DNA from: Candidatus Dadabacteria bacterium
GTDB taxonomy: Bacteria; Bdellovibrionota_C; UBA2361; J046
Assembly (NCBI GenBank): GCA_003696425.1
Contig: RFHI01000259.1
Coordinates: 1-51,040, forward strand
Direction: 5' to 3'
DNA length: 51,040 nucleotides
Made by a program: the position numbers and the translations under genes. Each line of letters opens with the position of its first letter. Within the stretch, counting starts at the first letter, position 1. Positions 14,212 to 44,513 of this stretch are shown here, in pieces. The notes under the pieces were generated by a model. That model worked only from the letters and a program-made list of their open reading frames with translations, searched no databases and had not been told where the DNA came from.

Positions 14212-14255
14212 AAAGGGAATATTAATACGGGTTTTCTAAGAGACTGTTAAGAGTA

Positions 14256-17252: not shown

Positions 17253-17258
17253 GGCGCT

Positions 17259-18611: not shown

Positions 18612-18630
18612 GGACTCATTGAGGAGAGTG

Positions 18631-19645: not shown

Positions 19646-19659
19646 GGAGATAAGGGTAA

Positions 19660-26793: not shown

Positions 26794-27546
26794 ATGGGAC
26801 CTGATATAAAATATTTAGATCGGGAGGATAACAGTCTCAGGCCCAGCTGGAGCGTTAACCCGGGATATGTAAACGACTTGCATCGTGAGATTTATGCCCG
26901 CACTGATCATATCCCTGGCTGGCAGATGGAGGGCGATACATACAAACTGTTTGAGATGGGGTATTTTTGTGGTGATGTTATCCTTGAAATAGGCATATAT
27001 GCAGGTCGCTCGGCGTCAGTGGCTCTTCACGGTGCTCTGAGTAACCCTGGACGGAAAGCAGCTCCTCAGTATTTTGGAGTCGACATTGATCCAAATGCAA
27101 TTAAAAAAACCAGAGAAACGCTGACCCGGCAGGGGCTTATTGAATATGCCATGATTCTGTGGGGCGGTATTGAAATGGTTACTGAATTAATTGATATAAC
27201 TCCCACAATGGTTTTTGTCGATGGAGATCATTCCTATGAGGGTTGTAAAAAGGATCTTTACACACTTAATGAGCTGCTTTCAGCAAATACTCCGGTGCTC
27301 TGTCACGATTGGAAAAACAAACAAAATCAAACTGGAGAATACGGAGTATTGCAGGCATGTAATGAATGGGAACAGGATGGATATGCACATTTTGCTGGAG
27401 TTTTTGGCTGTTCGGCACTATATATTACCTCAGATAAGTGTAATAAAGTCCGCGGTGCTCTTACAGCCCGCCGCTTTCGTCAGTTAAGAGATGCTGTCAG
27501 TGAAAATATAGATGAAGCTATTAAAGAGACGCTTCAGCAGAACTGA
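26794..27546 (+). CDS. Class I SAM-dependent methyltransferase (Methyltransf_24-like)
   Basis: LEIGIYAGRS, GVDID, VFVDGDHSYEG...D, LCHD. Start ATG 26794 or TTG 26779. Confidence 0.8.
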   Translation: MGPDIKYLDREDNSLRPSWSVNPGYVNDLHREIYARTDHIPGWQMEGDTYKLFEMGYFCGDVILEIGIYAGRSASVALHGALSNPGRKAAPQYFGVDIDPNAIKKTRETLTRQGLIEYAMILWGGIEMVTELIDITPTMVFVDGDHSYEGCKKDLYTLNELLSANTPVLCHDWKNKQNQTGEYGVLQACNEWEQDGYAHFAGVFGCSALYITSDKCNKVRGALTARRFRQLRDAVSENIDEAIKETLQQN

Positions 27547-29790: not shown

Positions 29791-30266
29791 AGTCACGCAG
29801 AAAAGCCAGAGAAGCCGCTTTGCAATTACTTTATATGTGCGATACGGCACGTAATTGGGATCCGCAGCAAATTGATATTTTCTTTGAGGCCTTTGTGCTC
29901 TCTGACGAAGAAAATAGTGAGGTTGAAAGGAAAAACACAAGCTTTTCCCGCCGCTTGATGCGGGGAGTGTGTGAAAATGTTGAATACCTTGATTCAATAA
30001 TTAATCAGGCTTCAACCCGTTGGAGCGTAAGACGTATGGCTCGTGTGGATCGGAATATTATAAGGCTTGCCACTTATGAGCTTGCTTTTGAAGATGAAAT
30101 CCCGACTAACGTCAGTATTAATGAGAGCATAGAAATCGCCAAGCGTTTCGGGACCAAGGATTCACCGGTTTTTGTTAACGGGGTACTTGATCACGTTGCC
30201 AGACTTGTTAAAGAGGGAGCTGCTACTAAAAGTAAGCAGACCATTAAGAAGCTGGCGGTCTCCTGA
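29787..30266 (+). CDS. nusB: Transcription antitermination factor NusB
   Basis: RRKAREAALQLLY, VDRNIIRLA, INESIEIAKRFG, FVNGVLD; follows ribH. Confidence 0.97.
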   Translation: MKSRRKAREAALQLLYMCDTARNWDPQQIDIFFEAFVLSDEENSEVERKNTSFSRRLMRGVCENVEYLDSIINQASTRWSVRRMARVDRNIIRLATYELAFEDEIPTNVSINESIEIAKRFGTKDSPVFVNGVLDHVARLVKEGAATKSKQTIKKLAVS

Positions 30267-32085
30267 TTTTTGACTGTCTTTTTGGCCGCTGTTGCCTGTT
30301 TCTGTTGCGCTTTCTTTTTTGGGCAAGCTCTACCTGAAGTTCTGCAACTGACCATTCAAACTTTGGATGCTTGCCTGTTTGAACTACAAGCAAACAGGAT
30401 GTTGTTAAAGGCTCAGAAAAATAGAGCGTTACATCACTCTGTCCGCCATAATAGGGGTACCCCTCAGGGGTAACCTGCACAGGACCCTGCCAGTTGGGTT
30501 GACTGTATACCGTTTTATAAGATTTGAATCGATCCATCTGCTTGGTTCTTCCGTGAAAGCATTTGTCGCCAGTCTTTACGGTAATGCCACGTGGAAAATC
30601 AGCAAGATAAATACCCGGATCAAGCTTTAATGCACCAACTTTAAGCGGTTCTTTAAAGTAAATGTGCAGCCACTCGCCACCAATTTGTCGTCCCAGTGCA
30701 GTTGACCAACGTGTAGCGGGATTTGAATCAAACATTTTTTTTAGAACCTTTCGATTATTATGATGTGAGCTATAAACTCTAATAATTTTTCTGCGTTTAA
30801 GCAGGTGCCTAAAAGATAAAATCCTCTTTCGGTGCTTAATAGCCCAGATGCCCTCATTTAAGATTACATTGAGTGATGGGGAAGCAATGATCTTGCGTTC
30901 TTCTGCGCCGGAAGCAGCGTAGATGCTATGTGGCGCTTGCTTCTGCAGAATTGCCGCAGGCTGCTCCCCTGCCTTTGTGGCTAACAGAACTGCAATAAAT
31001 ACTGGTAGAACAGTTGCAACTGCAATATGGCTCCTTAAACTTAGCTCTGCAAAATAAATAATGGCCAGTGAAAAAAAGATCGGTAAAAGTGGAATAAAAA
31101 ACAATCCTGGCAGCAATCGCCCTATTACCGCTACTGGCATAATAGAGGCAATCGATTCAGCGGGAAGTGAATCCAGCAAAGAATTTCCGGCCAGCAGGCA
31201 GAGAATAACAAGTGTATCTCGCGTAGCCTTGTTTGAGTTATACAGGATGATTAGTAAAATCAAGGCAACTAAAGTCAGAAGAAGTGAAGGTGCAAAGTAA
31301 ATAGATTTTAATCCTGCACGATTAATAAACGGAATTGATGGAGCTGAACTGATTAGTGGTGTAATAATGCCGGGTAGTCCATCGTCCGGTACCACATGAG
31401 CCAAAAAAGGGTAGTCCGGGATATGGGGCGCAGGGAAAACTATACCCGTGTAAAACATTATTGCCCCCGATGTCAAAAGGACCAGTTTAACTGTTGTATT
31501 AATGGGGGAGCTGTGTTCTTTAGAATAAAGAGCAATGAGCAGCGCCAGGATGTAAAGTAATAACGCCAGCGGGCCAGTTGCCAGTGCAGATACAGGAGCT
31601 GCTAAAACCACCAGCAGTTTCCACAGCAGCGCTGAATGTTGTGAGTTTAGTAGCTTGTCTAAAATGACACTTAGCAGCGCAAACCAGCTGATAGAAGCCA
31701 GTACGACCCGATCGCTTCCGAAAAGGATAATTACTGCGCAAGTAAGCAATAGAGTCCCTGGAGCCGCTAGGAGTCTTCTATCTGTTGGTAATTTAAAAAA
31801 TAAAAATATATAAACTGATACAAATAAAATAAATACCTCTGCTAGCAGGTAAGCCTTACTCGGTTGGGCCAATAATTGTTGCAGGACCTCGCCGATCAGC
31901 CTCAGAATTGGGCCGTCACGCCAGAGGTGATAAGCATTGTGGGTTGCGCTTGCAATAGTGTAAATACTGCCATCAACAGGTTTTAGCGGATAGGTAAGAT
32001 AAGGATCAAGTAAAGGTGCACAGAGCAGATATGCAAACCATAATGCAATCAGCAGGTAAATCGGTGATAAAATATATTTATTCAT
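30244..32085 (-). CDS. Polytopic membrane protein with C-terminal discoidin (F5/8 type C)-like domain
   Basis: About 10 hydrophobic segments, then MFDSNPATRWST...EWLHIYF...FPRG...WSVAEL. Confidence 0.65.
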   Translation of the reverse strand: MNKYILSPIYLLIALWFAYLLCAPLLDPYLTYPLKPVDGSIYTIASATHNAYHLWRDGPILRLIGEVLQQLLAQPSKAYLLAEVFILFVSVYIFLFFKLPTDRRLLAAPGTLLLTCAVIILFGSDRVVLASISWFALLSVILDKLLNSQHSALLWKLLVVLAAPVSALATGPLALLLYILALLIALYSKEHSSPINTTVKLVLLTSGAIMFYTGIVFPAPHIPDYPFLAHVVPDDGLPGIITPLISSAPSIPFINRAGLKSIYFAPSLLLTLVALILLIILYNSNKATRDTLVILCLLAGNSLLDSLPAESIASIMPVAVIGRLLPGLFFIPLLPIFFSLAIIYFAELSLRSHIAVATVLPVFIAVLLATKAGEQPAAILQKQAPHSIYAASGAEERKIIASPSLNVILNEGIWAIKHRKRILSFRHLLKRRKIIRVYSSHHNNRKVLKKMFDSNPATRWSTALGRQIGGEWLHIYFKEPLKVGALKLDPGIYLADFPRGITVKTGDKCFHGRTKQMDRFKSYKTVYSQPNWQGPVQVTPEGYPYYGGQSDVTLYFSEPLTTSCLLVVQTGKHPKFEWSVAELQVELAQKRKRNRNRQQRPKRQSKIRRPPAS

Positions 32086-34307
32086 GACCTGAAAAGTAAT
32101 CTCCGATAAGCTGGCATGCTTTTCAAAGTGATCGTACGGTTAAGCGGACAATTTTCAAGCTCCACAAGCACCACCTCTGGTGCTGCTTGGTATGGTTTGA
32201 CTGCACATCCAGTAGCCTCAAGAAACGGAAAGTAATTGTATTTAATAACTGCATCTTTACTTTTCAGCTTAAGGGTTACTGAGTTTGAATTTTGTTGCAG
32301 CACCTTACCCTGGCCCTTTAAAAAGTAAGAACTCTTGAAATCCTTACGAACAAAGAGGTGAAACCTGCCTTCTGTGGCCACCCGCACAAACTTTTCAGGG
32401 TGGTTTGTAAAAAATTTTTTCCAGCGCCGTTCATGTGCAAAGATTGCTGATACATTGTACAGATCCAGGTACTCTTCGATTCCTTCAAGTCTTCTATTAA
32501 TAAAGCTGTGCGGGAATAACTGCTTATACCTCCACAGATTGTGCACGTAGCTTGAGGCCATAAGAGGCTTGCCGGTCAAATATGCAAGTGGCGCCAGATG
32601 AGCATGGTTTAACTCGTGCAGCACAAAGCCGGAAAAGGCGATACGTCCACCAACTGAAAGATTCCGAATAGTTTCTATCAGGTGATCGGTTTTTGGTTCT
32701 TTAAAGTAATATTTTACCAGTGAATGATTAACAGTAATAGCTGCGGTCGCAAGTGGACCGCTTAACAGAAATCCACTAATAAGGGCCACAAGGGAACGGC
32801 TTATTATTCCTGACTTTTCTGTCACATTTCTTTTCATTAAAGTTGAGATTGCAGCAGCAGCAGGAATACATGCGATTATTTGTAATATCACCAGCATGCG
32901 ATCCAACTCAAGCTGTGGTTTTAGAGGAGATAATCCAGCCCCCATTATTAGAAGCCAAAGCGATGTAGCGGCAATAAGCCAGCCAGACAGGCCCCCGATT
33001 AATGTCAGACCTGGCAGCAACATAAAAATAAGCAAAGGATTTGTCGAAATAGTTTTTTCACGTAAAGCTTTCAGGCTATCTTTTAAATTCAAGCTAGCTG
33101 CATTTTTTTTAAATGTTTTGTGCTGGCCTGTCAGAGATGCTTCCGCCTCCTGAGCCATGCTGGTATAAGCCGGCTTTTCGGATTTTATAAATTTAGAAAC
33201 GTTTGATACTGACCAGAAAATGGAGATCCATGGAAGATTAATCGCGATAATTGCGACAGCCAGAGGAATTAGCAGACGTTTTTTTAACAGAGCACCGCGG
33301 CCGCAAAAGGCCATTACAACTTTTGCTAAACCAATCAACATAGCCGGGATAAGTACCAGCCCCGAAGGCGACCATAACAACACCAGAGAAAACAGCAGTA
33401 CATACAAAATAGCTTCAGTCAAGGTTAACCTAATATGCTCATTCAACAATCTGCAGGTAAGCGCTAAAAGAAGTGGAAGTAGCGAGGTGCTTGTTACAAA
33501 TCCCATGGTGCCATACTTTAAACCCCACTCAAACCATGTCAGGCTGGTTGAAACCGACAGGATCGAAGCAATTGCCGGGGCGGGATGCTTGAGATTCACA
33601 AGCCTGCAAGCGCAGTACGAGGAAAGCGGCAGCAGCACAAATAATACACCCACCACGATAAAATTATATATCTGCTCAACGGGGTAGAGATAGATAAGCG
33701 GAGAGAAGAGTAAAAACACATTAAGCGCGCCCGTAGCAAAAAAATCGCGGTTATCTATTCCGCCATTCCAGAATGGATTGTAAAAGGGGATAGAAGGAAA
33801 ATTTTCTTTTAGAAGTTCCAGTCTATACAGAAAAGTGGAGTGATCGTCAGAGAATATAAGGCGGCCAGCGCTCTCCCAGAAAAAACAACCTATACACAGT
33901 GTGATCGCCAAAATGGCAGTTACGGGTAAACTTTGTTCGGGAGCTTTATTGACAAAGAAAAAACTGCAGAGCGACATGAAAATTATCTCTCCGCGGATGG
34001 AAGGGCCTTGAAAAAAATTGTAGCGGTGGTTTAGCCAGTCGCTGAGAAAAACCAGACAAATTGCGAACGCAAAGAGCTCTAACATTATCAGGCGACCTGA
34101 CAGGTTTAAGCCGTTCAGTAGTATGCCCAGAACGCAGAGAATCGCTCCCGATACCAGCACTGCTTTTGCGTTGGAATAAAGTGTTAACCCGTTGTGATCC
34201 CATAGGGCAAGGGATTTGATGGAGAGAGAAAATATAAAAAGCAGTAGTCCACCTGATACTAGCAGGGTTGCGAATCTATTTTTTGTATCGTAGCCGGAAT
34301 GTTCCAT
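32082..34307 (-). CDS. GT-C-like membrane protein (YfhO / PTPS-related family)
   Basis: DDHSTFLYRL...YNPFWNGG loop followed by many TMs and a soluble C-terminal domain; its stop overlaps the next start (ATGA). Confidence 0.6.
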   Translation of the reverse strand: MEHSGYDTKNRFATLLVSGGLLLFIFSLSIKSLALWDHNGLTLYSNAKAVLVSGAILCVLGILLNGLNLSGRLIMLELFAFAICLVFLSDWLNHRYNFFQGPSIRGEIIFMSLCSFFFVNKAPEQSLPVTAILAITLCIGCFFWESAGRLIFSDDHSTFLYRLELLKENFPSIPFYNPFWNGGIDNRDFFATGALNVFLLFSPLIYLYPVEQIYNFIVVGVLFVLLPLSSYCACRLVNLKHPAPAIASILSVSTSLTWFEWGLKYGTMGFVTSTSLLPLLLALTCRLLNEHIRLTLTEAILYVLLFSLVLLWSPSGLVLIPAMLIGLAKVVMAFCGRGALLKKRLLIPLAVAIIAINLPWISIFWSVSNVSKFIKSEKPAYTSMAQEAEASLTGQHKTFKKNAASLNLKDSLKALREKTISTNPLLIFMLLPGLTLIGGLSGWLIAATSLWLLIMGAGLSPLKPQLELDRMLVILQIIACIPAAAAISTLMKRNVTEKSGIISRSLVALISGFLLSGPLATAAITVNHSLVKYYFKEPKTDHLIETIRNLSVGGRIAFSGFVLHELNHAHLAPLAYLTGKPLMASSYVHNLWRYKQLFPHSFINRRLEGIEEYLDLYNVSAIFAHERRWKKFFTNHPEKFVRVATEGRFHLFVRKDFKSSYFLKGQGKVLQQNSNSVTLKLKSKDAVIKYNYFPFLEATGCAVKPYQAAPEVVLVELENCPLNRTITLKSMPAYRRLLFRS

Positions 34308-34366
34308 TCCGGCTATTATAGTGGCTGATTACACGATGATAAAGGGTTGCAATGACAGATCCGGCA

Positions 34367-35434
34367 TCAATGGGCAATCTTGTCCAAACCAAGCTCCCTG
34401 TAAAAGGGATCGAAGTTAAAGACAGCTTCAGCAAAACAGTCCAAAGCCTGGTCGTTATCGTGCTTATTTAAAGCTTCAAGGCCCTGCTCAAGGCGGGAGT
34501 TAATAAGTTCCAGGTTGTCCGGATTAAAGGTGATATAGCGGTTCTTACCGGAACGCGATGTTTTACGAAGTTCATACTGCTGAAGACTTGACACCAGATT
34601 GGCTACAGCTCCAAGTGTTTCTCCTTTTCTTAAAGAGATTAAGGCGCGTAAGGCCAGGGAGCGGGGACTCTCATCAAGGGTGTCTCCTAACTGCAAGCAC
34701 TCTAATGCAAGATCCAGGCTGCCGAGACTTATAAAGTGAGCAGCAAGGGTGTGGTAACAAAGAGCTGCGCACTCTTCCTGGTGAGAATCCCAAGCCTTAT
34801 CAGGAAAGAGCTCTTCTATATTGCAAATATTAACCGCGTTATGCAGGGCACGACTCAAACTTTGCTCATCAAGAGGCGCTGAATCCTGCCCTGATTCTGA
34901 ACAGGACGACCTGATTAGCTGCTGTCCGGAGTTCAAAGCTGCAATCATAGCCGCCATGATGAAATCTGTAGCATTCTCTATCTGAAGCTCTGAGTTTAGT
35001 GTTCCTTGCAGTTCTGTTGTGATGCTTATATGTGCTGCAGGAGCGCTTGGTCGTCTCATTATGTAACCAACCAGCATATCTGTATTATTGATCGGAAATT
35101 CAGGGGAGTTCCCTTCTATAGCTGTAAAGAGTAGGGCATCATTGGTAAGCTCGCTGGCTTCAGCGATTAATGCTTCAACGGCCTCGCTATTCCAGACAGC
35201 AGCATCAATAATCACAAGTCGGTTGGCGTTACCGTTGTTAGTTACATTTGAGATTGCCTCGAGTATTGAGACATGGGCCGGATTAAATACAACAACATCT
35301 TTTAACAGCCGATCCTGATTAATGGTACCAATAACGCTTACGTCACTTACAGCGTCCGCACCAGACAGACCGTTAATTACCTCTACGATCCGATTATCGT
35401 TAGCTCCGTTCTGAATAACAATAACGCTCGACAT
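34367..35434 (-). CDS. Hypothetical protein; degenerate GT-A-like N-terminus and TPR-like C-terminus
   Basis: SVIVIQN...VSVIG...LVIIDAA pattern; helical YHTLAAHF...ALECL and ALDCFAEAV repeats; GAGG RBS. Confidence 0.5.
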   Translation of the reverse strand: MSSVIVIQNGANDNRIVEVINGLSGADAVSDVSVIGTINQDRLLKDVVVFNPAHVSILEAISNVTNNGNANRLVIIDAAVWNSEAVEALIAEASELTNDALLFTAIEGNSPEFPINNTDMLVGYIMRRPSAPAAHISITTELQGTLNSELQIENATDFIMAAMIAALNSGQQLIRSSCSESGQDSAPLDEQSLSRALHNAVNICNIEELFPDKAWDSHQEECAALCYHTLAAHFISLGSLDLALECLQLGDTLDESPRSLALRALISLRKGETLGAVANLVSSLQQYELRKTSRSGKNRYITFNPDNLELINSRLEQGLEALNKHDNDQALDCFAEAVFNFDPFYRELGLDKIAH

Positions 35435-35937: not shown

Positions 35938-36411
35938 GTGGAAACTTTTAAAAAAGTCTTTTTAAATGGGAATGTCAGGCATAGCAGCTTAATGAAACGT
36001 AAAATAAGTGACCTTTTTGATACGGGTATAGTTTCGATAAGCGCAGATGCGTCGTTGCATGATGCGTTGGAAAAGCTTATCGAATTTGATGCCCAGGAAG
36101 CGCTGGTTCAGGATTCGCCTGATACCATTGAAGGGGTTTTATATAAATCTTCTATTTTGAAGCTACTTGATACTCCGGGTAGTGATCCATTTAATTTTAA
36201 GGTTCGCAGTCTTGTCGATCGTCGTATGTGTCTTGAGCCTGATACTGCTACGTTTGGTGAGATTGTCTCAAGAATGGCGCTGGGGCTTTGCCGCTCAACA
36301 GTTGTCGTTGATCGGCTTGGCAGACCCGTTCAGATTTTAACACCCGCCAAGCTTTTATCGCTTCTCGGAGGAACTCACTATCCAGTTCCCGCTGAAAAGG
36401 CATACTCCTGA
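35938..36411 (+). CDS. CBS-domain pair protein (divergent)
   Basis: IVSISADASLHDALEKL...IEGVL and VVVDRLGRPVQILT; AGGAG RBS before GTG. Confidence 0.65.
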   Translation: METFKKVFLNGNVRHSSLMKRKISDLFDTGIVSISADASLHDALEKLIEFDAQEALVQDSPDTIEGVLYKSSILKLLDTPGSDPFNFKVRSLVDRRMCLEPDTATFGEIVSRMALGLCRSTVVVDRLGRPVQILTPAKLLSLLGGTHYPVPAEKAYS

Positions 36412-36651: not shown

Positions 36652-39600
36652 TTAAAACGCACTTCCTATGCTGAAGTGGAAACGAAACGACGGCTCACCA
36701 GCGCGCTCATCGAGCGGATGACCTATGTCAAAACCGATTGGACCAATTGGTGAGAGATAACGAATTCCAATTCCAGCGCTTTCCCTCAGATCCCCGGAAG
36801 ATATCGAGCGATCCTTTAAGAAGACCGTGCCTGCATCAAAGAAGCCGATTAAAGAGGTGAAATCATTTAATCTGTAACGAAGCTCTGTGTTTTGCTGCAG
36901 CAGTAAATCCCCACCAATAACGCTCCCAGCGACTCCGCGCGGTCCAAGTGAGTTTTCCCTGAATCCTCGGACTGAAGTTCGACCACCGAGATAATATCTC
37001 TGACTTATAGGAACATTGTCTGTGCCGTTAAATGTCCACAGTGATCCGGCTCTGGAGTTAAATGCAAAAGAGATACGGCGATCAAATAAAGGTAGTGGTT
37101 TAATAAAAGAAAATTTACCCTCCAGTCCAAAATAACTTGCATCAGAACCTAATTTTTTGGTGGCCAGCAATGCATCTAGCGAGAGATTAAACCCACGCGT
37201 TGGATTAAGGCGGCTATCACGACGGTCATAGTTTAAAGATGCGCTAACGAAACTGAGCTTGACTGTACCGGTATCGAACTTTCCAATAACTGCATCAGGG
37301 GAGACGTTATCAAGGTTCTCTTCAAGTAAAGTGTGGCCAAGAGATAGATCAAAATCATCACTAAAGGATCTTAATACGAACGAAGTCAGCGAGATGCGGT
37401 CAAGATCAAATTCCTGATTAGCAAGTTCCAGCTTTTGATATCTGAGATCTTCTGTTAGCCGGTAATTACTATCAAACAAAAATGGGTCTGAATAACGCAG
37501 ACTTGCAATGCCTTCAGTTACAGACGCGACAGTAGGGTCATAATAAAGATCGGCTCTCATAGCAAGGCCGCGGCCATCTGCAAAAATACCGCGATCTGTA
37601 AATTCGCCAAAAAGATGTGTTCCAAATTCAGAGTGGACACCGCCACCGATTTCAAGTGTATGGAGCGAACGCTCTATAACTGTGACTGTCAGCTGCTCAG
37701 TTGGCTGATCAAGAGAGCCGTCGGACGGTTCAAATTGAACTCGTGAAAATAATCCCAGTCGCAATAATCGCTTACGCGATAGATCAATTAACTCCTGATC
37801 CCACGGGTCTCCCGCTTGCACCAATAGTCGACTTTTAATTACTGAAACATCAATATTTTGAGCGCCCTTAATAATAATAGAGCTTATCCTTGTCCGCTTG
37901 CCGGGATTGATTAAGAGAACAGCCGGTTCATTGGAAGCCTTCATCTGAGTAGTTATTTCGGCCTTCAAGTAGCCGGCACGTATAAGTTTTTCAAGCAGTG
38001 TTTCAATATAGCTATTGATTTTTGGCACTGAAATGGGTTTATCAGGTTTTTTCGGTAGTTGAATTTTATCGGGCCAGTTTTCAGTTATTATTTTGCTGGC
38101 TATCAGCCTGTCCCCTTCGGAAATGTGATAAATGATTTTTACACTTCGCTCGTCTTGATTAGGTACGATTCGATACTTAACCATCGCTGCAGGAAACCCC
38201 TGCCAGACATAAACCTCTTTAATCGCCTCACTGTTGTGTCTTAGCATTTCATCTACAGCAAACTCAGGGCTTAAAATATCATCGCTAAATTCTGGAAAGC
38301 GCTCTTCGATCAACTTCGAGAGATTTTCCGAACTTAGCGACTTATTTCCTTTAAACTCAACTCCTGAAACCGGGACGCGCTCTTCTTCTATGATATTTAT
38401 CCTGTAATTTATACGATTATCAGTGCTAACATCCCTGGTGTAGCTAATGGTTGCATAAAGGTAGCCGGCTTCTCGGTATAGTCGTTCAATATTTTCAATT
38501 AATATATTGATTGTGTTAGCACCAAATGGTTGTTTGCGTTTAAAAAGATTAATGGTGTTTAGGAAATCGTTTGCAGAGAATACCGTGTTGCCGCTGAAAT
38601 AAAAGCTCACCGGCGCACCACTATAAACACTGAGCACAAGCTTGGCTCTGGAGCCGCGCAGTTTTTTATACTCTGCTGAAACGCGTGCCCCAATGAAACC
38701 TTCAGAGCGTAATTTGTGTAAGACCAAATTCTGGATTTTGGTCAGATACTGGCGAGTAGCGACTGTGTTTTTTGCTGGTTGATCTACAATGTTATTAACA
38801 AACTTAGGGAGGTTTTCACCTCTTATTATAATTTTAGAAATTGTATAAATTGTACCTTCCTTAACGGTTATAGATAGTTTTTTGCAATAGTCTCCCCCAA
38901 GCTCGCACTTGACCAGAGCAATAGCATCCATGTATCCGGTATTGTGGTAATAATCTTCAATGCTGCGTTTGATCTTATCAAGAGCGCTTTCAGGTATACG
39001 CGATGTGTTGTTTAGCCTTAAATGTGTAAGCAGCTTTCCCCTTGAAATGGCTTTATTGCCATTAATGTTTATTTCTAAAAGTTTTTTCTGCGAGCTTAAA
39101 ATAGTGTATGTTAGGTCAAGGGCCAGTGCATCACGCTGATTATTGTCGACTGTTTGCAACATGCCGGCAAGATTCAATTCATCAGTAAGATCGTAGCTTA
39201 GGACCAGGGACGATTCGGAGTTGGCCGCACTGATAAAGCTCTTGGCAATTATTGCAAGCCGGTTGCTAAGATTTTTTTGTGCTATTATTTGAGGTTCAAT
39301 AACGCCACGACGTCTGTTGTAATTAGGTTCAAGTGAAAGTGTGTCAATAGATGTCAGTCGTGAGAACAGCGCGCCGAGTAGAGAGCTTTCTGAGGAATCT
39401 TCTGCATCCAGGAGAAGAGGCTCGAAATCCCGCTCTGCTGAGCCTGCTCTGGTTTGCCTTATATCCCGCCCGCCAGTCGTAATTAAGGTTAGCAGTTCTT
39501 TTTGAGAATATGGGCTGTCAGAACTTAGTTCAATCGTAGGCGACGTTAGTGGTCCGTGTGCTTCGAGAATAACAAGAATATTATCCCCTTCTCTCGATCT

Positions 39601-42354
39601 AACATAAGTTTCGGCAAGCATGTTTAATTCTGGTTCCCTGGTTGCAGGTGAAAACCTGATTTCTCCCGAGGTAATCTCGAAACGCCTGCCCTTTAAACCT
39701 AACCACCCCCTGAGAGAATTCATTGTACCGCTAATGCGCGGCTTGTCGAGCGTCCCACCTATATGAACGTCTGCCCGGAATTCAGCTCCCAGCCAGTTGG
39801 TGAGAATAAAAATATTTCGGCCGGCAGTAAGTGAAACATCCAGATCCAGTGATGGAAGAGCATTTAACTTGATCTGTGAAGACCTGTTTGTAATCAGATA
39901 GTCTCTAATGGTTTCAACCAGCGTGAGTAAATCAAACTTGCGTTTAAACTCCGCATTTTCTATCTCAATTTCGCCGGCGATAGCTGTTCGTCCCAACTCA
40001 TTTTGAGTTAAAGATAAAGAGCCTGATAGTATAACAGGTGTCTCTTCAAGCAGCTCCAAAGACATATTTGAAAACTTTAGATCACAAAAAGATTTTTCGA
40101 ATGTAAGTGGGAAAATTTCAGCTGCAATTTGAAAGCGCCCGCCATTAAGCAATCCAGTAAGCTTTTTAACCTTTATAAATTTCTGGCTAAGAACGATATC
40201 ACCGCTGATATCGTGCGAACTTATATTGGCAGATTCTATAGAGAGCTCGCCGTTGTTAACGGTAAATGAACCGCTTAGTTGCGGATTATCTAAAGATCCG
40301 TTTATAGTAGCATGCCCTTTAATGTTACCTCTTATATCATCCACGTTAGGCAGGAGTGGCAAAAGAGTAGCAAGTTTCAGTTTGCCGGCTAATTCGATTT
40401 GATACCCTGATTTTTGGCTGATACTTCCATCCAGAACAAAGTGACTCTGTTCTCCGCTAAGCACAATCTTATTGAGAGTAAACCTTCCTGACTGAATTGG
40501 CAGTTTTGTAGGGTTCTTCAACGAGACAGTATAGGGTTTGCAGCCAATCTCGATATTATTAAGATCAATCGAGCCATCTCCAGCCAGCACAGCCTGTAAC
40601 GGAAAATTATAATTAAGATCAGCAGAGATTCTTACGCACTGAAGCTCAGGATTATATTCTTTTGGTTTAAATTCGTTTAATATTAACGAGAGTGTCCCAC
40701 GGTTGCGATTTTTAGCGGTAACTGTGATTTTTGAGCTAATGGAGCCACTCTGATTTGAAAGGTTTAGAGTAAGTATTCCTGAGGTTAATTTTAGATCGCT
40801 ATTCAGTGCAGCTTCCCCCTTAAAATGCCTCGAAGCAACTTTGAGTCTGGCGTTGAGAGATAGCCCGCTAAAGTTTAACGCTCCGCTACCCGAACCACTG
40901 CCTGTTATGAAAATCGGCTCTCTGAACAGCAGATCTTGTTCAGGTAAAAATGACAGATATAAGGGAAGGGCGTCTGTTTTAAAATTCAACTTCTGTAGCG
41001 TAGGTGAATCAGTCAAAATCACATTGCCGCTGGCAGAGAGCTTATCTTTATTTAGGCTGTCGGTTAGTAAAAAATTAAGATGCGCACCTTTGACACTAAG
41101 CTGAAGCAGTAAATTCTTTAACATCATTCCAGTGTATCTGACTGTTTTAACGCTGGATCGCCACTTCCAGACCGGCTCATCTAACTTGCCTCCAAGCTTT
41201 AACATGCCGCTGATACCTGAGATCTCTCCATCAGGAAGTTTAATGCTGCCAATTTCTATATGTACGGCTCCCCGCAATTCATCGTCATTAAGCTTCAATG
41301 GTTGCTGAAGTTTTAGCGCCGCTAACGGCCCAATGCCGTTAAGAGTCTCTATCGAACCTAGCGGTTTGCCGTGATTAGTATCAAACTTAAAACTTCCATT
41401 AACTTTCTCCAGATCGAAAAGTTTAAGTGTGCCAGCAAAAATGCCCGCTGATTCCTTCGCGGGTAATGAGAACTTCCCTTTGAGCGCCGGACTGCCAAGC
41501 GTGCCCCCAAGCGAGGCACTTCCTTCGATATTACTGTGAATCATTTCAGGTGCTCCCAGAGCGCGCTGATCGAGAAAAAAGCGTACTTTTCCGGACAGGG
41601 AGTTCCCCTGATCTGTTAACGACCTTGCTATTATGTCCACACGGGACTTAAAACGGGTCAGAAAAATTTTACTAAAATCAATCAAGCTATCATAAATTTC
41701 AAAGGTCGAGTGTACTTCGCCGAGATAAATTGCTGTGGGTTCCTGGCTCTGCCTGTGTTTAGTTAACTCCAGCGAGAGTTTTTTTATAAACGGAGAAAGC
41801 ACAAAATTGTTACGTTTATTTCTGATCATTTTCAGACCCACACCAGAACCCCTGAGAGTTGAGCGGCTAAATGGCTCGCTGAAGGCGGAATCTATAACTG
41901 TCAGGTTGTGGAGTTTTAGCTTAATGAGCGGAGCTTTGCCGGACGACGATGGTTCAGATAGATGGTCAATAAACTTAAAGGTTGGACTTTCGGGGCCGAC
42001 CCCATCAGCGTAGCCGTTAATCAGTTTCAGTTCATCAAGGTGAATTACATGCTTAAAAATATCTCTCAGGCTGAAACTGGCAGTGATTATCGGAAAGTTA
42101 AGAGCTTTATGGCCATCTGCAATTATGGCTGCATTTTGAGCTTTAGCCCTGAGTGTGATCAGTGACAGGCTAACAGTGTCTACTTTAAATTCGCATTCGC
42201 ACGATGCAGCTACTTCGTCGGCCAGCAGGTCAACAAGCTCAAGTGCCAGATAACGCTTAAGACCTAGGATAGAAAATCCTATTAAAACACCAAACACAAG
42301 CCCGGCCATAGCCAGTCTGGTTCCGCCTCTTTTTTTATAAATTGTGTTTGGCAT
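36652..42354 (-). CDS. Fusion of TamB/AsmA-like (DUF490) region with POTRA repeats and an Omp85 (TamA/BamA-type) beta-barrel
   Basis: N-terminal TM anchor; repeated GxLxxPxxxG motifs; about six POTRA-like units; barrel with DRRDSRLNPTRG, YLGGRTSVRGF, FFDAG, LSPIGPIGFD; terminal Phe. Confidence 0.88.
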   Translation of the reverse strand: MPNTIYKKRGGTRLAMAGLVFGVLIGFSILGLKRYLALELVDLLADEVAASCECEFKVDTVSLSLITLRAKAQNAAIIADGHKALNFPIITASFSLRDIFKHVIHLDELKLINGYADGVGPESPTFKFIDHLSEPSSSGKAPLIKLKLHNLTVIDSAFSEPFSRSTLRGSGVGLKMIRNKRNNFVLSPFIKKLSLELTKHRQSQEPTAIYLGEVHSTFEIYDSLIDFSKIFLTRFKSRVDIIARSLTDQGNSLSGKVRFFLDQRALGAPEMIHSNIEGSASLGGTLGSPALKGKFSLPAKESAGIFAGTLKLFDLEKVNGSFKFDTNHGKPLGSIETLNGIGPLAALKLQQPLKLNDDELRGAVHIEIGSIKLPDGEISGISGMLKLGGKLDEPVWKWRSSVKTVRYTGMMLKNLLLQLSVKGAHLNFLLTDSLNKDKLSASGNVILTDSPTLQKLNFKTDALPLYLSFLPEQDLLFREPIFITGSGSGSGALNFSGLSLNARLKVASRHFKGEAALNSDLKLTSGILTLNLSNQSGSISSKITVTAKNRNRGTLSLILNEFKPKEYNPELQCVRISADLNYNFPLQAVLAGDGSIDLNNIEIGCKPYTVSLKNPTKLPIQSGRFTLNKIVLSGEQSHFVLDGSISQKSGYQIELAGKLKLATLLPLLPNVDDIRGNIKGHATINGSLDNPQLSGSFTVNNGELSIESANISSHDISGDIVLSQKFIKVKKLTGLLNGGRFQIAAEIFPLTFEKSFCDLKFSNMSLELLEETPVILSGSLSLTQNELGRTAIAGEIEIENAEFKRKFDLLTLVETIRDYLITNRSSQIKLNALPSLDLDVSLTAGRNIFILTNWLGAEFRADVHIGGTLDKPRISGTMNSLRGWLGLKGRRFEITSGEIRFSPATREPELNMLAETYVRSREGDNILVILEAHGPLTSPTIELSSDSPYSQKELLTLITTGGRDIRQTRAGSAERDFEPLLLDAEDSSESSLLGALFSRLTSIDTLSLEPNYNRRRGVIEPQIIAQKNLSNRLAIIAKSFISAANSESSLVLSYDLTDELNLAGMLQTVDNNQRDALALDLTYTILSSQKKLLEININGNKAISRGKLLTHLRLNNTSRIPESALDKIKRSIEDYYHNTGYMDAIALVKCELGGDYCKKLSITVKEGTIYTISKIIIRGENLPKFVNNIVDQPAKNTVATRQYLTKIQNLVLHKLRSEGFIGARVSAEYKKLRGSRAKLVLSVYSGAPVSFYFSGNTVFSANDFLNTINLFKRKQPFGANTINILIENIERLYREAGYLYATISYTRDVSTDNRINYRINIIEEERVPVSGVEFKGNKSLSSENLSKLIEERFPEFSDDILSPEFAVDEMLRHNSEAIKEVYVWQGFPAAMVKYRIVPNQDERSVKIIYHISEGDRLIASKIITENWPDKIQLPKKPDKPISVPKINSYIETLLEKLIRAGYLKAEITTQMKASNEPAVLLINPGKRTRISSIIIKGAQNIDVSVIKSRLLVQAGDPWDQELIDLSRKRLLRLGLFSRVQFEPSDGSLDQPTEQLTVTVIERSLHTLEIGGGVHSEFGTHLFGEFTDRGIFADGRGLAMRADLYYDPTVASVTEGIASLRYSDPFLFDSNYRLTEDLRYQKLELANQEFDLDRISLTSFVLRSFSDDFDLSLGHTLLEENLDNVSPDAVIGKFDTGTVKLSFVSASLNYDRRDSRLNPTRGFNLSLDALLATKKLGSDASYFGLEGKFSFIKPLPLFDRRISFAFNSRAGSLWTFNGTDNVPISQRYYLGGRTSVRGFRENSLGPRGVAGSVIGGDLLLQQNTELRYRLNDFTSLIGFFDAGTVFLKDRSISSGDLRESAGIGIRYLSPIGPIGFDIGHPLDERAGEPSFRFHFSIGSAF

Positions 42355-42941
42355 TGATTTTACAACTGTAAATATCCAGGGACTGGTAGATAGTAAAAGA
42401 GCTCACAAAGTTAAACCAGTGGTAGGATGGGCAGTGCGGCGGCGATAATATTCTGAAAATCCAGAAAATACAAACAGGGTTTTAAATAACAAAATATTCC
42501 TGACTGGCTGTCACTGATGAGGGGCTGTTTTAGTTTAAGTCTGTAGATCGAAAGTTCGAGTTTCTTATCGGGGCTGAATATTTTGAAAGGTCGAAAGGTT
42601 ATGAGACTTGCAAAAGATTCGTCTGCCGTGTCCACAATAGAGCTAGCGCGCCTAAATGAAGTCACTGATGATTATAAGGTGATAACAGCTGCTTGGGGAC
42701 ATTAAGAGTTAAGATTAACCCCCGCTTGATTAGCCTGCTATGTACGTAAGCGTTGGCGTAAACGCGAAATATTTATGCTGACGTCGGTGAATTTTTATTT
42801 CTTGTTTCTGTAACAGATTCTATAATTAATTATTTTATTTATAGTAAGTTATAGTCATTGGCTGCGTAAACTCTGTTCGGGGATATGCTGCTGGCTGCAT
42901 TAAGAAGTTGTGAACGTATGTAAATATAACGGAGAAGCCCT

Positions 42942-44513
42942 TTGTCATTACCCGCATTACCCGATTTTCCCCTGCAGGCAGACCTTAACAGCGATTCGGA
43001 CAATCCGTCGATCATGCGCTTCTGGTTGCGCATGGTTTCAGAACTAAAAGTTTTTGAAGCTGATGGCCTGTATGCTGTTCCGCATGAAGAACAAGCTATT
43101 CAGTTGCAGGTAAAACGGAGGGAATATTTCCTTAAAAAAATAAACGTAAAAAAGGAATTAGTAGCTCAGCTCGTTGGATTTCTGTACAGCAGGGTTTCAG
43201 TTGTGCTGGCCGATCTGAGTGGCGCTAGCGGTCTTTTAAAAAGTGACGAGCAGGAGTTTGAGTTTGTAACCGCAATTTCTGCTAATAAAAACGTTTTGAT
43301 TGCAAGGGTTAGTGTAAATATAGCAGAAAGAACATTTCATATGACGAATTTTCGCTGGTTGGAAACCGATAGAGCACTTGAGGTTTGTGGACTGTCGGAT
43401 TTTTACAGGACAGTATTTTTAAATATAATAAGTGTGTCTTGTCGGGAAGAAAGACCTGTCATAATTGCGGCTCCTTCTGAGGAGCATCTCCTGTTGCTTG
43501 GAGCGTTGGTCAGAACATTTGTCAACTCAGAAAAACTGAATATTGAAGTTACCGCTCCTGCCATCGTGAAAATTACTGAAGATGACAGTATACGAGCTCT
43601 TGGCAGGTTTATAACTGATAGTGAACCGCATGGAGCGAAACCAGCTGGAGTTATATGTGGCATGTTTCTGGAAGCAGCCGCTTCAGGCACAAAACTTTCA
43701 TTTAAATTGACCGATCTGGAGAAACTGCCTGTAGCACTTTCGGATAAGCTTATAGGAGCAGAAAGTTCAAATACGCTAATTGCAAAAGAGCCAGTGGGGG
43801 CTGGAAGCTATACGGGTATTTTTAGTCTTATTCCGCCAGGAGAGATGCTGGATCTTATCTTCGATGACCGGGCAAGCTTAGAGAATATGGCCGCAATGCT
43901 TTATCCGCTTGGCACACGTGCGTTAGTTGAAGATGGTATCGAGAAGATTTTATTAGGTAGAGTTAACCCGCACGATGTTTTTGATTTGTTGCCTGAATTG
44001 CCGGAATATTATCTTAAATATTGTGGGAGACATAAGGCCCTTGAAGCTACCGGTGGAGCCTTTTCAGACAAAGATCTGGCTGCCGCAATAACAGCCGAAG
44101 AAATGGAGGCAGACAGTGAAGAAGAACAGGCCGGGGACAGTAGACGAATACTGGTTGTAGAGGATGATAAGGATCAGAGACAAATTCTTGAAATGGTTTT
44201 GAAAGCTGCTGGTTATGAGGTAACACTTGCAGAAGACGGTGAACGTGGACTTGAACTGCTTAATAAGCATGGGGCTGATCTTGTAATTACTGATTTGATG
44301 ATGCCGGGCATGGATGGAGCAGAGCTTATAAAAAGTCTGCGTTCATCAGATAAATTTAAGAGACTGCCCATACTGGTTCTTACTGTGGTTTCAGATGATG
44401 AAAGAGAGTATGAACTGCTCGAACTAGGTGCCGATGATTTCTGTAACAAGCGCATACAACGCCGCTTACTGCTGACACGCATTTCAAAGTTGTTGGACAG
44501 GCCTAGGGCGTAA
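42942..44513 (+). CDS. Response-regulator receiver domain fused to a degenerate PilB/GspE-like region
   Basis: C-terminal REC: ILVVEDD, ITDLMMPGMDG, LVLT, GADDFCNK. Upstream YTGIFSL...LVEDGIEKILLG resembles the PilB/GspE C-terminus. Confidence 0.65.
   Translation: MSLPALPDFPLQADLNSDSDNPSIMRFWLRMVSELKVFEADGLYAVPHEEQAIQLQVKRREYFLKKINVKKELVAQLVGFLYSRVSVVLADLSGASGLLKSDEQEFEFVTAISANKNVLIARVSVNIAERTFHMTNFRWLETDRALEVCGLSDFYRTVFLNIISVSCREERPVIIAAPSEEHLLLLGALVRTFVNSEKLNIEVTAPAIVKITEDDSIRALGRFITDSEPHGAKPAGVICGMFLEAAASGTKLSFKLTDLEKLPVALSDKLIGAESSNTLIAKEPVGAGSYTGIFSLIPPGEMLDLIFDDRASLENMAAMLYPLGTRALVEDGIEKILLGRVNPHDVFDLLPELPEYYLKYCGRHKALEATGGAFSDKDLAAAITAEEMEADSEEEQAGDSRRILVVEDDKDQRQILEMVLKAAGYEVTLAEDGERGLELLNKHGADLVITDLMMPGMDGAELIKSLRSSDKFKRLPILVLTVVSDDEREYELLELGADDFCNKRIQRRLLLTRISKLLDRPRA

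What the first reader, a model, noticed from the sequence alone, without database searches (positions are those of the whole stretch)
36652..42354. Single-polypeptide trans-envelope machine: TamB fused to ~6 POTRA domains and an Omp85 barrel
Seen: one uninterrupted 1900-aa ORF. It has an N-terminal TM anchor (about aa 14-33), roughly 1050 aa of TamB/AsmA-like beta repeats ending at ...LALDLTYTILS (about aa 1088, nt ~39090), then POTRA-like units with no stop or second signal peptide. I count six units, marked by GYMDA, GFIGA, GYLYA, GFPAA, GYLKA and GLFSRV, followed by a barrel with the VRGF lid motif and a terminal F. Established: TamA (3 POTRA) and TamB are normally separate proteins, E. coli BamA has 5 POTRA, and TamB/AsmA-like proteins are implicated in OMP assembly and phospholipid bridging. 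Inference: a covalent IM-to-OM conduit whose barrel must be inserted while the chain is tethered in the inner membrane. Similar fusions may already be in databases; I cannot check this.
Basis: partly seen in the sequence, partly recalled or inferred. Interest (0 to 1): 0.75.

Follow-up and report, generated by a model that had tools for sequence, protein, structure and literature searches.

The report
Single-chain TamB–Omp85 envelope bridge gene
One real 1900-codon gene joins an inner-membrane-anchored TamB-type lipid bridge to a six-POTRA Omp85 outer-membrane barrel, two parts that are separate proteins in all studied bacteria, and the join is conserved across a whole order of uncultured bacteria.

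Summary
The ORF lies on the minus strand (36652-42354) and is 1900 aa with no stop. It reads: N-terminal hydrophobic anchor (aa 14-32), about 900 aa of beta-taco, a TamB/DUF490 domain ending at aa 1087, six POTRA domains, and a 16-strand Omp85 barrel with VRGF and a terminal F.

The join is not an artefact. One stop-free frame spans it in 85 of 91 genomes of the same order and in 162 of 170 related database proteins.

In 24-25 of 33 genomes of sister orders the same system is two adjacent genes whose stop and start overlap or abut. These are tamB-like, then an Omp85 with its own signal peptide. The barrel tree shows at least three separate fused lineages.

The genome keeps a separate canonical BamA with a Skp-like neighbour, so this is a TAM-like second machine, not BAM. 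Most likely it is a covalent TamB-Omp85 bridge for phospholipid and/or outer-membrane-protein delivery.

Not shown: that the mature protein stays uncleaved, that DUF490 docks in its own barrel (weak support only), and read-level cover of the junction.

I found no paper describing such fusions. Earlier notes of this scan report an Acidobacteriota family with the same architecture.

The parts
36652..42354 (-). Whole fused gene, 1900 aa, about 210 kDa
   Evidence: stop-to-stop frame 1916 codons
42259..42315 (-). N-terminal hydrophobic segment aa 14-32 (predicted uncleaved signal anchor), preceded by K7 K8 R9 R13 and followed by K33 R34
   Evidence: AlphaFold2 helix aa 10-51. All 48 long fused proteins examined have a hydrophobic N-terminal segment (best 19-residue window 1.5-3.2). 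Cleavage was not tested.
39520..42195 (-). TamB/AsmA-like beta-taco groove, aa 54-945, a near-continuous run of beta strands
   Evidence: AlphaFold2 model of aa 1-1100, pLDDT 80.5. Foldseek hits: LPD-3 9cap_A, TamB chains 9xdc_B and 9xdd_B, TamB963-1138 5vtg_A (TM-score on target 0.71).
39103..40143 (-). Pfam TamB (DUF490) match, aa 738-1084
   Evidence: 136 bits, cut-off 22.4
39094..39504 (-). C-terminal DUF490 sub-domain, aa 951-1087: helices plus six strands. The last strand ALALDLTYTIL has an alternating, beta-signal-like pattern.
   Evidence: compared with E. coli TamB strands as described in PMC12800296
39076..39093 (-). Junction linker, aa 1088-1093, about 6 residues between the last TamB strand and POTRA1 strand 1
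   Evidence: collinear with the fused relatives
38860..39075 (-). POTRA 1 (aa 1094-1165)
   Evidence: secondary structure; GYMDA at 1140
38623..38844 (-). POTRA 2 (aa 1171-1244)
   Evidence: GFIGA at 1219
38386..38610 (-). POTRA 3 (aa 1249-1323)
   Evidence: Pfam POTRA_2 1251-1303; GYLYA at 1297
38119..38373 (-). POTRA 4 (aa 1328-1412)
   Evidence: GFPAA at 1386
37906..38103 (-). POTRA 5 (aa 1418-1483)
   Evidence: GYLKA at 1461
37672..37890 (-). POTRA 6 (aa 1489-1561)
   Evidence: Pfam POTRA best stretch 1489-1561; GLFSRV at 1534
36655..37662 (-). 16-strand Omp85 barrel (aa 1565-1900) with the VRGF motif (aa 1795-1798, nt 36961-36972) and a C-terminal F
   Evidence: Foldseek top hits are E. 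coli BamA (9hg5_A, E 3.6e-41) and P. aeruginosa TamA (8us1, TM-score on target 0.75).

Best explanation
This is a genuine, conserved gene for a single-chain TAM-like machine.

Shown:
- One frame encodes an N-terminal hydrophobic helix, about 900 aa of TamB-type beta-taco groove, a DUF490 end domain, six POTRA domains and a 16-strand Omp85 barrel.
- The architecture is fixed across one order of uncultured bacteria. Their public relatives are labelled Oligoflexia or Deltaproteobacteria MAGs.
- Sister orders carry the same system as two adjacent genes whose stop and start overlap or abut: tamB-like, then an Omp85 with its own signal peptide.
- The genome keeps a separate canonical BamA.

Inferred mechanism:
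1. The chain is exported through Sec, and its N-terminal helix is kept as an inner-membrane anchor, as in TamB.
2. [quoted passage not shown]
3. The DUF490 end then docks at or in the barrel's lateral gate in cis, as E. coli TamB docks with TamA.
4. In that geometry the last TamB strand ends on the periplasmic side, so the chain can run straight into POTRA1. The six POTRA domains would then loop back to barrel strand 1.
5. The finished molecule is a fixed 1:1 bridge from inner to outer membrane. It carries phospholipids along the hydrophobic groove and may also help to insert some outer-membrane proteins.

The fusion arose when the boundary between the two adjacent genes was lost, together with the Omp85 signal peptide.
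For: ORF and domains. Fold: Foldseek matches to BamA and TamA and to TamB and LPD-3.

Conservation:
- 40 full-length relatives (1849-1929 aa, 29-42% identity, at least 97% of the query covered).
- The junction is spanned by one stop-free match in 39 of 41 genomes and in 85 of 91 same-order genomes.
- 162 of 170 related database proteins have one alignment across the junction, and 142 of these are at least 1700 aa.

Origin: 24-25 of 33 genomes of other orders hold adjacent tamB-like and Omp85 genes on one strand. The gene ends overlap by 1-140 nt in six of the eight pairs read and lie 11-12 nt apart in two (4 and 11 nt overlap in the two read first). The Omp85 has a hydrophobic N-terminus in seven of the eight, clearly cleavable-looking in the two read in full.

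Synteny: lipB/lipA lies just upstream of the split pair in G049 and of the fused gene in G065. lipA lies 6.6 kb upstream in the window.

Separate BamA: a 775-aa protein scoring 685.8 bits on TIGR03303, followed by a 182-aa gene in the position of skp. Each of five sister genomes likewise has one BamA plus one TamB-linked Omp85. The fused barrel lies outside the BamA clade (98/93*).

Geometry: in E. coli TamAB the last TamB strand pairs with TamA strand 1, and four strands sit in the barrel lumen (PMC12800296, sections read). The folding test of DUF490 (aa 940-1088) against the POTRA-barrel part gave weak support: score 0.56, best of 3 controls 0.00. That mark was reached by 116 of 157 solved complexes and 2 of 215 mismatches. 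At 0.60 or under it was reached by only 18 of those 157 solved complexes and by both mismatches that passed. Run-to-run contact agreement was at least 58% and partner pLDDT at least 50. A like complex has been solved, so this pass may come from memory.
Against: - No evidence on the mature protein: no proteomics, and no RNA holder was listed.
- No signal-peptide predictor was available, so retention of the anchor rests on the 19-residue hydrophobic length, the flanking charges and analogy with TamB.
- I could not inspect model coordinates, so cis docking and the closed POTRA loop are inferred. The folding test gives only weak support.
- The curated equivalog models are not met: TamB 47 bits against 825, TamA 133 bits against 625. 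Function is therefore carried over from distant relatives.
- No contig of the two public runs covers the junction bases.
- One same-order genome that is 92% complete (G018) gave no match with these queries.
- The genome has a second, smaller AsmA-like gene, so lipid transport need not depend on this protein.
Confidence: 0.7

Rival explanations
1. The gene is real, but the polypeptide is cut after export. The cut could be at the junction, giving ordinary TamB-like and Omp85 proteins, or after the N-terminal hydrophobic segment, giving an untethered protein. The working machine would then be a normal two-part TAM, or an outer-membrane-anchored rod.
For: Nothing here excludes processing. The split forms in sister orders work as two proteins. 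The independently fused G065 protein keeps a linker of about 25 residues at the join.
Against: In the window's clade only about 6 residues separate the last DUF490 strand from POTRA1 strand 1, and the segment is conserved in length, which leaves little room for a protease site. The N-terminal hydrophobic run is 19 residues, is followed by K-R, and has no small-x-small motif next to it; I did not check relatives for such a motif. TamB homologues are reported to keep their signal anchor (passages of PMC5582053). Fusion would bring no obvious gain if it were always undone.
Confidence: 0.2
2. It is a single-chain bridge, but its main job is to insert or secrete particular outer-membrane proteins, not bulk phospholipid transport. 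Candidates are adhesins, pilus or predation-related proteins.
For: The Omp85 part keeps BamA-like features: it scores over the TIGR03303 cut-off (338.9 against 297.15), has VRGF, and has six POTRA domains. Milner et al. 2014 (PMC3983030, passages) proposed outer-membrane-protein or autotransporter transport for the unfused bd2494-bd2495 pair of Bdellovibrio. E. coli TamAB helps Ag43 insertion (PMC12800296 abstract).
Against: If the last TamB strand permanently occupies barrel strand 1 in cis, substrates have less access to the lateral gate. The same paper reports that BAM can replace TamAB for Ag43 but not for phospholipid transport. No candidate substrate gene lies beside the gene in the window.
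Confidence: 0.2
3. The fusion is an assembly or sequencing artefact, or a recent frameshift, in this metagenome-assembled genome.
For: The genome is a 280-contig assembly. No public contig covers 39025-39103.
Against: The same uninterrupted architecture occurs in 85 of 91 same-order genomes, and 142 of the 170 related database proteins checked are fused and at least 1700 aa. These come from many assemblies at only 29-45% identity. The junction residues fit the family consensus.
Confidence: 0.02
4. The fused protein is the organism's housekeeping BamA, which has captured TamB.
For: The C-terminal part passes the BamA equivalog cut-off.
Against: A separate 775-aa BamA scores twice as high (685.8 bits) and has its own signal peptide and a Skp-like neighbour. 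All but two of the 41 genomes of the order sample show a second BamA-like match in a frame of about 650-870 codons; the exceptions are G016 and the 62%-complete G035. The fused barrels fall outside the BamA clade (98/93*).
Confidence: 0.02

Closest known systems
E. coli translocation and assembly module, TamA + TamB (cryo-EM 9xdc/9xdd; PMC12800296, PMC13119328)
   Same: Both have an inner-membrane signal-anchored TamB with a beta-taco groove and a DUF490 end, partnered with an Omp85 barrel. The last TamB strand has a beta-signal-like alternating pattern. The fold matches TamB chains 9xdc_B and 9xdd_B and 5vtg, and TamA 8us1.
   Different: One polypeptide instead of two. Gene order is tamB then omp85, whereas E. 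coli has tamA then tamB. Six POTRA domains instead of three. The Omp85 part has no signal peptide. The TamA and TamB equivalog models score far below their cut-offs. In E. coli the last strand is the very C-terminus: residues 1251-1259 of 1259 (with coordinates). Here the chain goes on.
Unfused tamB-like + multi-POTRA Omp85 operons: Bdellovibrio bd2494-bd2495 (a '7-POTRA' Omp85), Bacteriovorax BMS_0139/0140, M. xanthus MXAN_5764/5763 (PMC3983030); duplicated BamA with 6-7 POTRA in operons with TamB (Heinz et al. 2015, PMC4494059)
   Same: Same gene order and same domain content. I found the same two-gene form in 24-25 of 33 genomes of sister orders. In the eight pairs read, the gene ends overlap in six and lie 11-12 nt apart in two.
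   Different: Those are two proteins, each with its own export signal. In the barrel tree the window's clade is distinct from the split clade of the same class (97/91* and 99/99*), and genome G051 has both forms. No TPR gene lies upstream in the window. I did not compare directly with the Bdellovibrio or Myxococcus sequences.
BamA (TIGR03303) of the BAM complex
   Same: 16-strand barrel, VRGF loop-6 motif, POTRA domains. Best structural matches are E. coli BamA chains. The score is above the equivalog cut-off.
   Different: Six POTRA domains rather than five, no signal peptide, and half the score of the genome's own BamA. It lies outside the BamA clade.
TamB-BamA partnership in Borrelia (PMC5582053, PMC11361582)
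   Same: TamB works with a BamA-type Omp85 that is encoded next to it. The TamB C-terminal domain binds POTRA domains (titles and abstracts seen).
   Different: There the partner is the only, canonical five-POTRA BamA, and the two proteins are separate.
Fused TamB-Omp85 family reported by earlier notes of this scan in Acidobacteriota (e1-2883782, e1-3255548, e1-721072 and others)
   Same: Same overall architecture in one chain. My searches also found a distant fused set of 2026-2186 aa (P0046-P0055).
   Different: That set is only 24-29% identical over 22-41% of the query, is longer, and forms its own barrel clade (100/99*). I did not verify that this set is the Acidobacteriota family of the earlier notes.

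Membership tests
TamB (DUF490 / AsmA-like) family | C-terminal DUF490 domain (Pfam PF04357) over the gathering score | tested here: met
   136 bits against 22.4, aa 738-1084
TamB (DUF490 / AsmA-like) family | N-terminal signal anchor, then a long beta-taco groove | tested here: met
   Helix aa 10-51, then beta strands to aa 945 in the AlphaFold2 model. Foldseek hits to TamB chains and LPD-3. Membrane retention itself was not tested.
TamB (DUF490 / AsmA-like) family | Orthology to proteobacterial TamB (NCBIfam equivalog NF047952) | tested here: not met
   47.4 bits against a cut-off of 825
TamB (DUF490 / AsmA-like) family | DUF490 is the C-terminal end of the protein | tested here: not met
   The chain continues for 813 residues into POTRA domains and a barrel
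TamA | NCBIfam equivalog NF047950 over its cut-off; three POTRA domains; own signal peptide | tested here: not met
   133.4 bits against 625; six POTRA domains; no signal peptide at the join
BamA (TIGR03303) | Equivalog score over the cut-off | tested here: met
   338.9 bits against 297.15, over aa 1252-1900 only
BamA (TIGR03303) | Is the genome's housekeeping copy: five POTRA domains, signal peptide, groups with BamA | tested here: not met
   A separate BamA scores 685.8 bits. The fused barrel lies outside the BamA clade, 98/93*. Six POTRA domains.
Omp85 superfamily | 16-strand barrel preceded by at least one POTRA domain; loop-6 (V/I)RG(F/Y) motif; aromatic C-terminal residue | tested here: met
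   That the motif is family-defining is recalled, not taken from a call.
TAM complex (working like TamA-TamB) | The last TamB strand pairs with barrel strand 1 (hybrid barrel), with DUF490 strands in the lumen | tested here: inconclusive
   Weak support only: score 0.56 against a best control of 0.00. Model coordinates could not be inspected.
TAM complex (working like TamA-TamB) | Phospholipid transport or outer-membrane-protein assembly activity | not testable with these tools
   Needs genetics, lipidomics or biochemistry

The most novel reading that the evidence does not exclude
The mature protein is one uncleaved chain of about 210 kDa with an alpha-helical anchor in the inner membrane and a 16-strand beta barrel in the outer membrane. 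Its DUF490 end is permanently locked into its own barrel gate, so the six POTRA domains form a closed loop from the gate back to barrel strand 1. BAM would then have to fold a barrel on a chain that is still tethered to the inner membrane, and the Omp85 part would serve as a dedicated lipid-exit port, not as an insertase. Fused forms occur in at least three separate lineages. This would be natural proof that TamB and its Omp85 partner act as a fixed 1:1 unit, with the TamB C-terminus on the periplasmic side next to POTRA1.
Probability: 0.45. Interest if true: 0.7.

Novelty: new variant of a known kind. Interest (0 to 1): 0.55.

Why it matters
[quoted passage not shown] How TamB is held at the outer membrane was solved only in 2026, as a hybrid barrel.

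A natural covalent TamB-Omp85 fusion is a Rosetta-stone argument on three points:
- The two parts act as a permanent 1:1 unit.
- It fixes the chain topology at the junction: the TamB end is periplasmic, next to POTRA1.
- It raises a clear biogenesis question: how is a barrel inserted by BAM while the same chain is anchored in the inner membrane?

It also offers a ready single-chain construct for structural work. The within-class series of split pair, young fusion (G065) and old fusion (this order) lets the steps of the fusion be read. The fusion is present in public databases under a generic name, but my seven literature searches found no description of it.

Tried and rejected
Reads over the junction. 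Two DNA runs of one hot-spring metagenome study hold the stretch, kept as contigs only. The covered parts are identical apart from one C>T at 39433 in X2. No contig covers 39025-39103 (X1) or 39034-39137 (X2), so this says nothing about the junction either way. No RNA holder was listed.

Other steps that led nowhere:
- The search for related loci in genome contigs with the junction peptide gave one irrelevant locus, a weak POTRA match in a Neomarinimicrobiota MAG. I therefore got no organism names that way.
- The listing of cluster members gave no organism names for the distant fused set.
- The phylum search returned only genomes of the same class, so I cannot say how the fusion is spread beyond that class.
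- Family PF13502 is not in the library. I did not pursue it.

Complex prediction of DUF490 against the POTRA-barrel part gave weak support: score 0.56, best control 0.00.

Literature searches for a described fusion found none. Heinz et al. 2015 has no occurrence of 'fusion' or 'fused' in its main text; I did not open its supplements. Heinz & Lithgow 2014 mentions only a BamA-BamB-like fusion.

Readings rejected: assembly artefact, housekeeping BamA, and TamA orthologue (see the rival explanations and the membership test).
Full report
**1. The observation**

The window holds one uninterrupted ORF of 1900 codons at 36652-42354. The stop-to-stop frame is 1916 codons, so the ATG at 42354 is at or near the true start.

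- a hydrophobic run at aa 14-32;
- LALDLTYTILS at aa 1077-1087 (nt 39094-39126);
- the six motifs GYMDA, GFIGA, GYLYA, GFPAA, GYLKA and GLFSRV at aa 1140, 1219, 1297, 1386, 1461 and 1534;
- VRGF at aa 1795, and a terminal F.

The computed mass is 209.9 kDa.

**2. Domains and fold**

Pfam finds TamB/DUF490 (aa 738-1084, 136 bits), POTRA (115 bits, four stretches, plus POTRA_2) and Omp85 (aa 1613-1900, 170 bits).

NCBIfam scores:

| Model | Score (bits) | Cut-off | Region |
|---|---|---|---|
| BamA equivalog TIGR03303 | 338.9 | 297.15 | aa 1252-1900 |
| TamA equivalog | 133 | 625 | |
| TamB equivalog | 47 | 825 | |

An AlphaFold2 model of aa 701-1900 was built on 49 aligned sequences (pLDDT 81.9, pTM 0.71). 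In order, it shows:
- taco strands;
- three helices;
- a six-strand DUF490 end whose last strand is aa 1076-1086;
- six beta-alpha-alpha-beta-beta POTRA units (aa 1094-1165, 1171-1244, 1249-1323, 1328-1412, 1418-1483, 1489-1561);
- 16 barrel strands.

Its best solved look-alikes are E. coli BamA chains (9hg5_A, E 3.6e-41) and P. aeruginosa TamA (8us1, TM-score on target 0.75).

A second model of aa 1-1100 (pLDDT 80.5) has a helix at aa 10-51, followed by a near-continuous run of beta strands to aa 945. Its best matches are:
- the bridge-like lipid transfer protein LPD-3 (9cap_A);
- the TamB chains of the two TamAB cryo-EM entries (9xdc_B, 9xdd_B);
- the TamB beta-taco crystal fragment (5vtg_A, TM-score on target 0.71).

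**3. Is the join real?**

The protein search found 40 full-length relatives (1849-1929 aa, 29-42% identity, at least 97% of the query covered) with the same Pfam set. Where named, they are called 'TamB domain-containing protein' of Oligoflexia or Deltaproteobacteria MAGs.

In whole genomes, a stop-free match crosses residue 1088 in 39 of 41 genomes of the order sample. The two exceptions are G018 (92% complete, only a BamA-like match) and G035 (62% complete, no match).

With a 500-residue query centred on the join (aa 801-1300):
- 87 of 91 same-order genomes match;
- 85 of them cross the join in one open frame;
- G120 and G121 are fragments at contig ends;
- G018, G035, G105 and G122 gave no match.

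In a library of 1.84 billion cluster representatives, 3908 proteins match at E up to 0.001 and 145 at E up to 1e-30. I then checked the best 150 listed there together with the first 45 proteins. Of the 170 of these that gave a BLASTP hit, 162 have a single alignment across the join, and 142 of those are at least 1700 aa.

Two runs of one hot-spring metagenome study hold the stretch, but only as contigs, and none covers 39025-39103 or 39034-39137. The residues encoded there fit the family consensus in frame.

**4. Where the fusion came from**

Among the 33 genomes of other orders in the same class, 24-25 have two adjacent same-strand genes instead of one. These are a tamB-like gene (open frames of about 1200-1390 codons) followed by an Omp85 gene (about 870-1010 codons).

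I read eight such pairs.
- In the first two, the genes overlap by 4 nt (G051) and 11 nt (G049).
- Across all eight, six pairs overlap (by 1-140 nt) and two are 11-12 nt apart.
- The four genes of G049 and G051 were scanned against Pfam. The upstream proteins carry DUF490. The downstream proteins carry 5-6 Pfam POTRA hits and an Omp85 barrel.
- Seven of the eight downstream proteins begin with a hydrophobic N-terminus. In the two read in full it looks like a cleavable signal peptide.

This two-gene form matches what is in print:
- bd2494 (DUF490) and bd2495 ('7-POTRA' Omp85) of Bdellovibrio, with the same synteny in Bacteriovorax and M. xanthus (PMC3983030, passages);
- duplicated BamA copies with 6-7 POTRA domains in operons with TamB (PMC4494059, passages).

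The split TamB proteins do not end at the last strand. They carry a further 10-17 residues, and about 100 in G049. E. coli TamB differs: its last strand, residues 1251-1259, is the very end of a 1259-residue protein (with coordinates).

A lipB/lipA gene sits directly upstream of the split pair in G049 and of a fused gene in G065. In the window, lipA lies 6.6 kb upstream on the same strand.

**5. More than one fused lineage**

I built a maximum-likelihood tree of the C-terminal 470 residues of 39 Omp85 proteins. It gives four groups:
- the window's clade: own order plus the fused copies of G051 and G041, 97/91*;
- the split-type Omp85s, with the fused G065 protein inside them, 99/99*;
- a distant fused set of 2026-2186 aa (P0046-P0055), 100/99*;
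- canonical BamA, including E. coli BamA, 98/93*.

Forcing all 12 within-class fused rows into one clade costs 15.5 log-likelihood units (AU p = 0.0066). I named that group after seeing the tree, so the p-value is generous.

Two other observations fit a separate, younger fusion in G065. Its junction still resembles the tail of the split TamBs and keeps a linker of about 25 residues.

Genome G051 holds both a fused copy and a split pair. The window's clade is therefore a paralogue of the split system, not simply its fused orthologue.

The tree is unrooted and cannot tell fusion from fission. I read it as at least three separate fused lineages.

Earlier notes of this scan describe a large Acidobacteriota family with the same architecture. 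The distant set may be that family, but I did not verify its taxonomy.

**6. It is not BAM**

The genome (2.98 Mb, 280 contigs, 95.8% complete) has a second Omp85 gene on another contig. That gene encodes a 775-aa protein with a signal peptide, scores 685.8 bits on TIGR03303, and is followed by a 182-aa gene in the position of skp. I call the neighbour Skp-like from its position and sequence character only; NCBIfam gave no hit for it.

The only DUF490 in the genome is the fused gene. A second, smaller AsmA/YhdP-like gene (624-codon frame) lies on contig C86.

Five sister genomes each have one BamA plus one TamB-linked Omp85, either fused or split.

**7. How it most likely works**

Shown: the architecture, its conservation, its origin from an adjacent pair, and the separate BamA.

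Inferred:
- The N-terminal segment is a retained signal anchor. It has 19 hydrophobic residues, four positive charges before it and K-R after it, and no small-x-small site beside it. All 48 long fused proteins examined have a hydrophobic N-terminal segment; the best 19-residue window scores 1.5-3.2. Signal-anchor retention is reported for Borrelia TamB (PMC5582053, passages).
- The barrel ends in an aromatic residue, as BAM substrates do, so the housekeeping BAM would insert it after the whole chain has left the Sec channel.
- In E. coli TamAB, the last TamB strand pairs with TamA strand 1, and four DUF490 strands sit inside the opened barrel (PMC12800296, sections 9, 10 and 13).
- By the usual antiparallel geometry of such pairing (my own knowledge), that strand ends on the periplasmic face. 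A chain that continues from there can enter POTRA1 directly.
- With both ends of the POTRA chain at the gate, the six POTRA domains would form a closed loop.

A folding test of DUF490 (aa 940-1088) against the POTRA-barrel part (aa 1089-1900) gave weak support:
- score 0.56, best of 3 controls 0.00;
- the mark was reached by 116 of 157 solved complexes and 2 of 215 mismatches;
- at 0.60 or under it was reached by only 18 of those 157 solved complexes and by both mismatches that passed;
- contact agreement between runs was at least 58%, and partner pLDDT at least 50.

A like complex has been solved, so the pass may reflect memory of TamAB. I could not read model coordinates.

The function, phospholipid flow along the groove and perhaps help with some outer-membrane proteins, is carried over from E. 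coli TAM (abstracts of PMC12800296 and PMC13119328). It is not tested here.

**8. Novelty**

Seven literature searches, and passages of the two Heinz papers, found no description of a TamB-Omp85 fusion. The library lacks most subscription journals, and I did not read supplements.

The proteins are in public databases under generic names. Earlier notes of this same scan had already flagged the architecture in Acidobacteriota.

This case adds four things:
- a separate lineage outside that family;
- six POTRA domains;
- the unfused sister form within the same class;
- a second, younger fusion (G065) within that class.

I rate it a new variant of a known kind. It is of real interest to people working on TAM and BAM, but it is not categorically new.

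Noticed in passing
window 30244-35434 (-): Three consecutive minus-strand genes of 613, 741 and 355 aa (30244-32085, 32082-34307, 34367-35434) have no Pfam family at E up to 0.001. They lie downstream of the fused gene but are separated from it by a convergent CBS-domain gene (35938-36411, +).
   Followed up: no
window 13564-20940 (+): An alternative complex III-like operon: multihaem cytochrome c, a molybdopterin/4Fe-4S subunit of 998 aa, NrfD-like, ActD, cytochrome c, and a 426-aa protein with no family.
   Followed up: no
G051 (L006 2847-9586 and L007 4259-9886): One 5.1-Mb genome of a sister order carries both a split tamB-like/Omp85 pair and a fused copy of the window's type, so the two systems are paralogues that can coexist.
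   Followed up: partly
G065, L008 4226-9853 (-): A 1875-aa fused gene whose barrel groups with the split-type Omp85s (99/99*) and whose junction keeps a tail of about 25 residues like that of the split TamBs. It looks like a separate, younger fusion, with a lipB-like gene directly upstream as in the split locus of G049.
   Followed up: partly
G049, L005 4952-8647 (-): The split TamB-like protein of G049 carries a low-complexity, proline/serine/glycine-rich tail of about 100 residues after its last DUF490 strand. The other split TamBs have only 10-17 residues there.
   Followed up: no
own genome, contig C86:695-2152 (-): A second, much smaller AsmA/YhdP/DUF748-like gene (624-codon frame) is the only other AsmA-family match in the genome.
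   Followed up: no
window 39025-39137: The public contigs of both runs break just around the junction, with gaps at 39025-39103 in X1 and 39034-39137 in X2 (X2 also lacks 38744-38866). This may reflect short unitigs from strain variation or filtering. I could not tell which.
   Followed up: partly
window 27534-29033 (-): The serine hydroxymethyltransferase ORF is 499 aa as listed, and its Pfam match comes in two stretches (best stretch aa 168-440). The listed start may be too far upstream, or the protein may carry an insertion.
   Followed up: no
window 42355-42941: The 587-bp region upstream of the fused gene holds only an 84-aa minus-strand ORF with no family (42411-42665). It is followed by a divergent 523-aa response-regulator-domain gene (42942-44513, +). 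No TPR gene lies upstream, unlike the Bdellovibrio bd2492-bd2495 operon.
   Followed up: no
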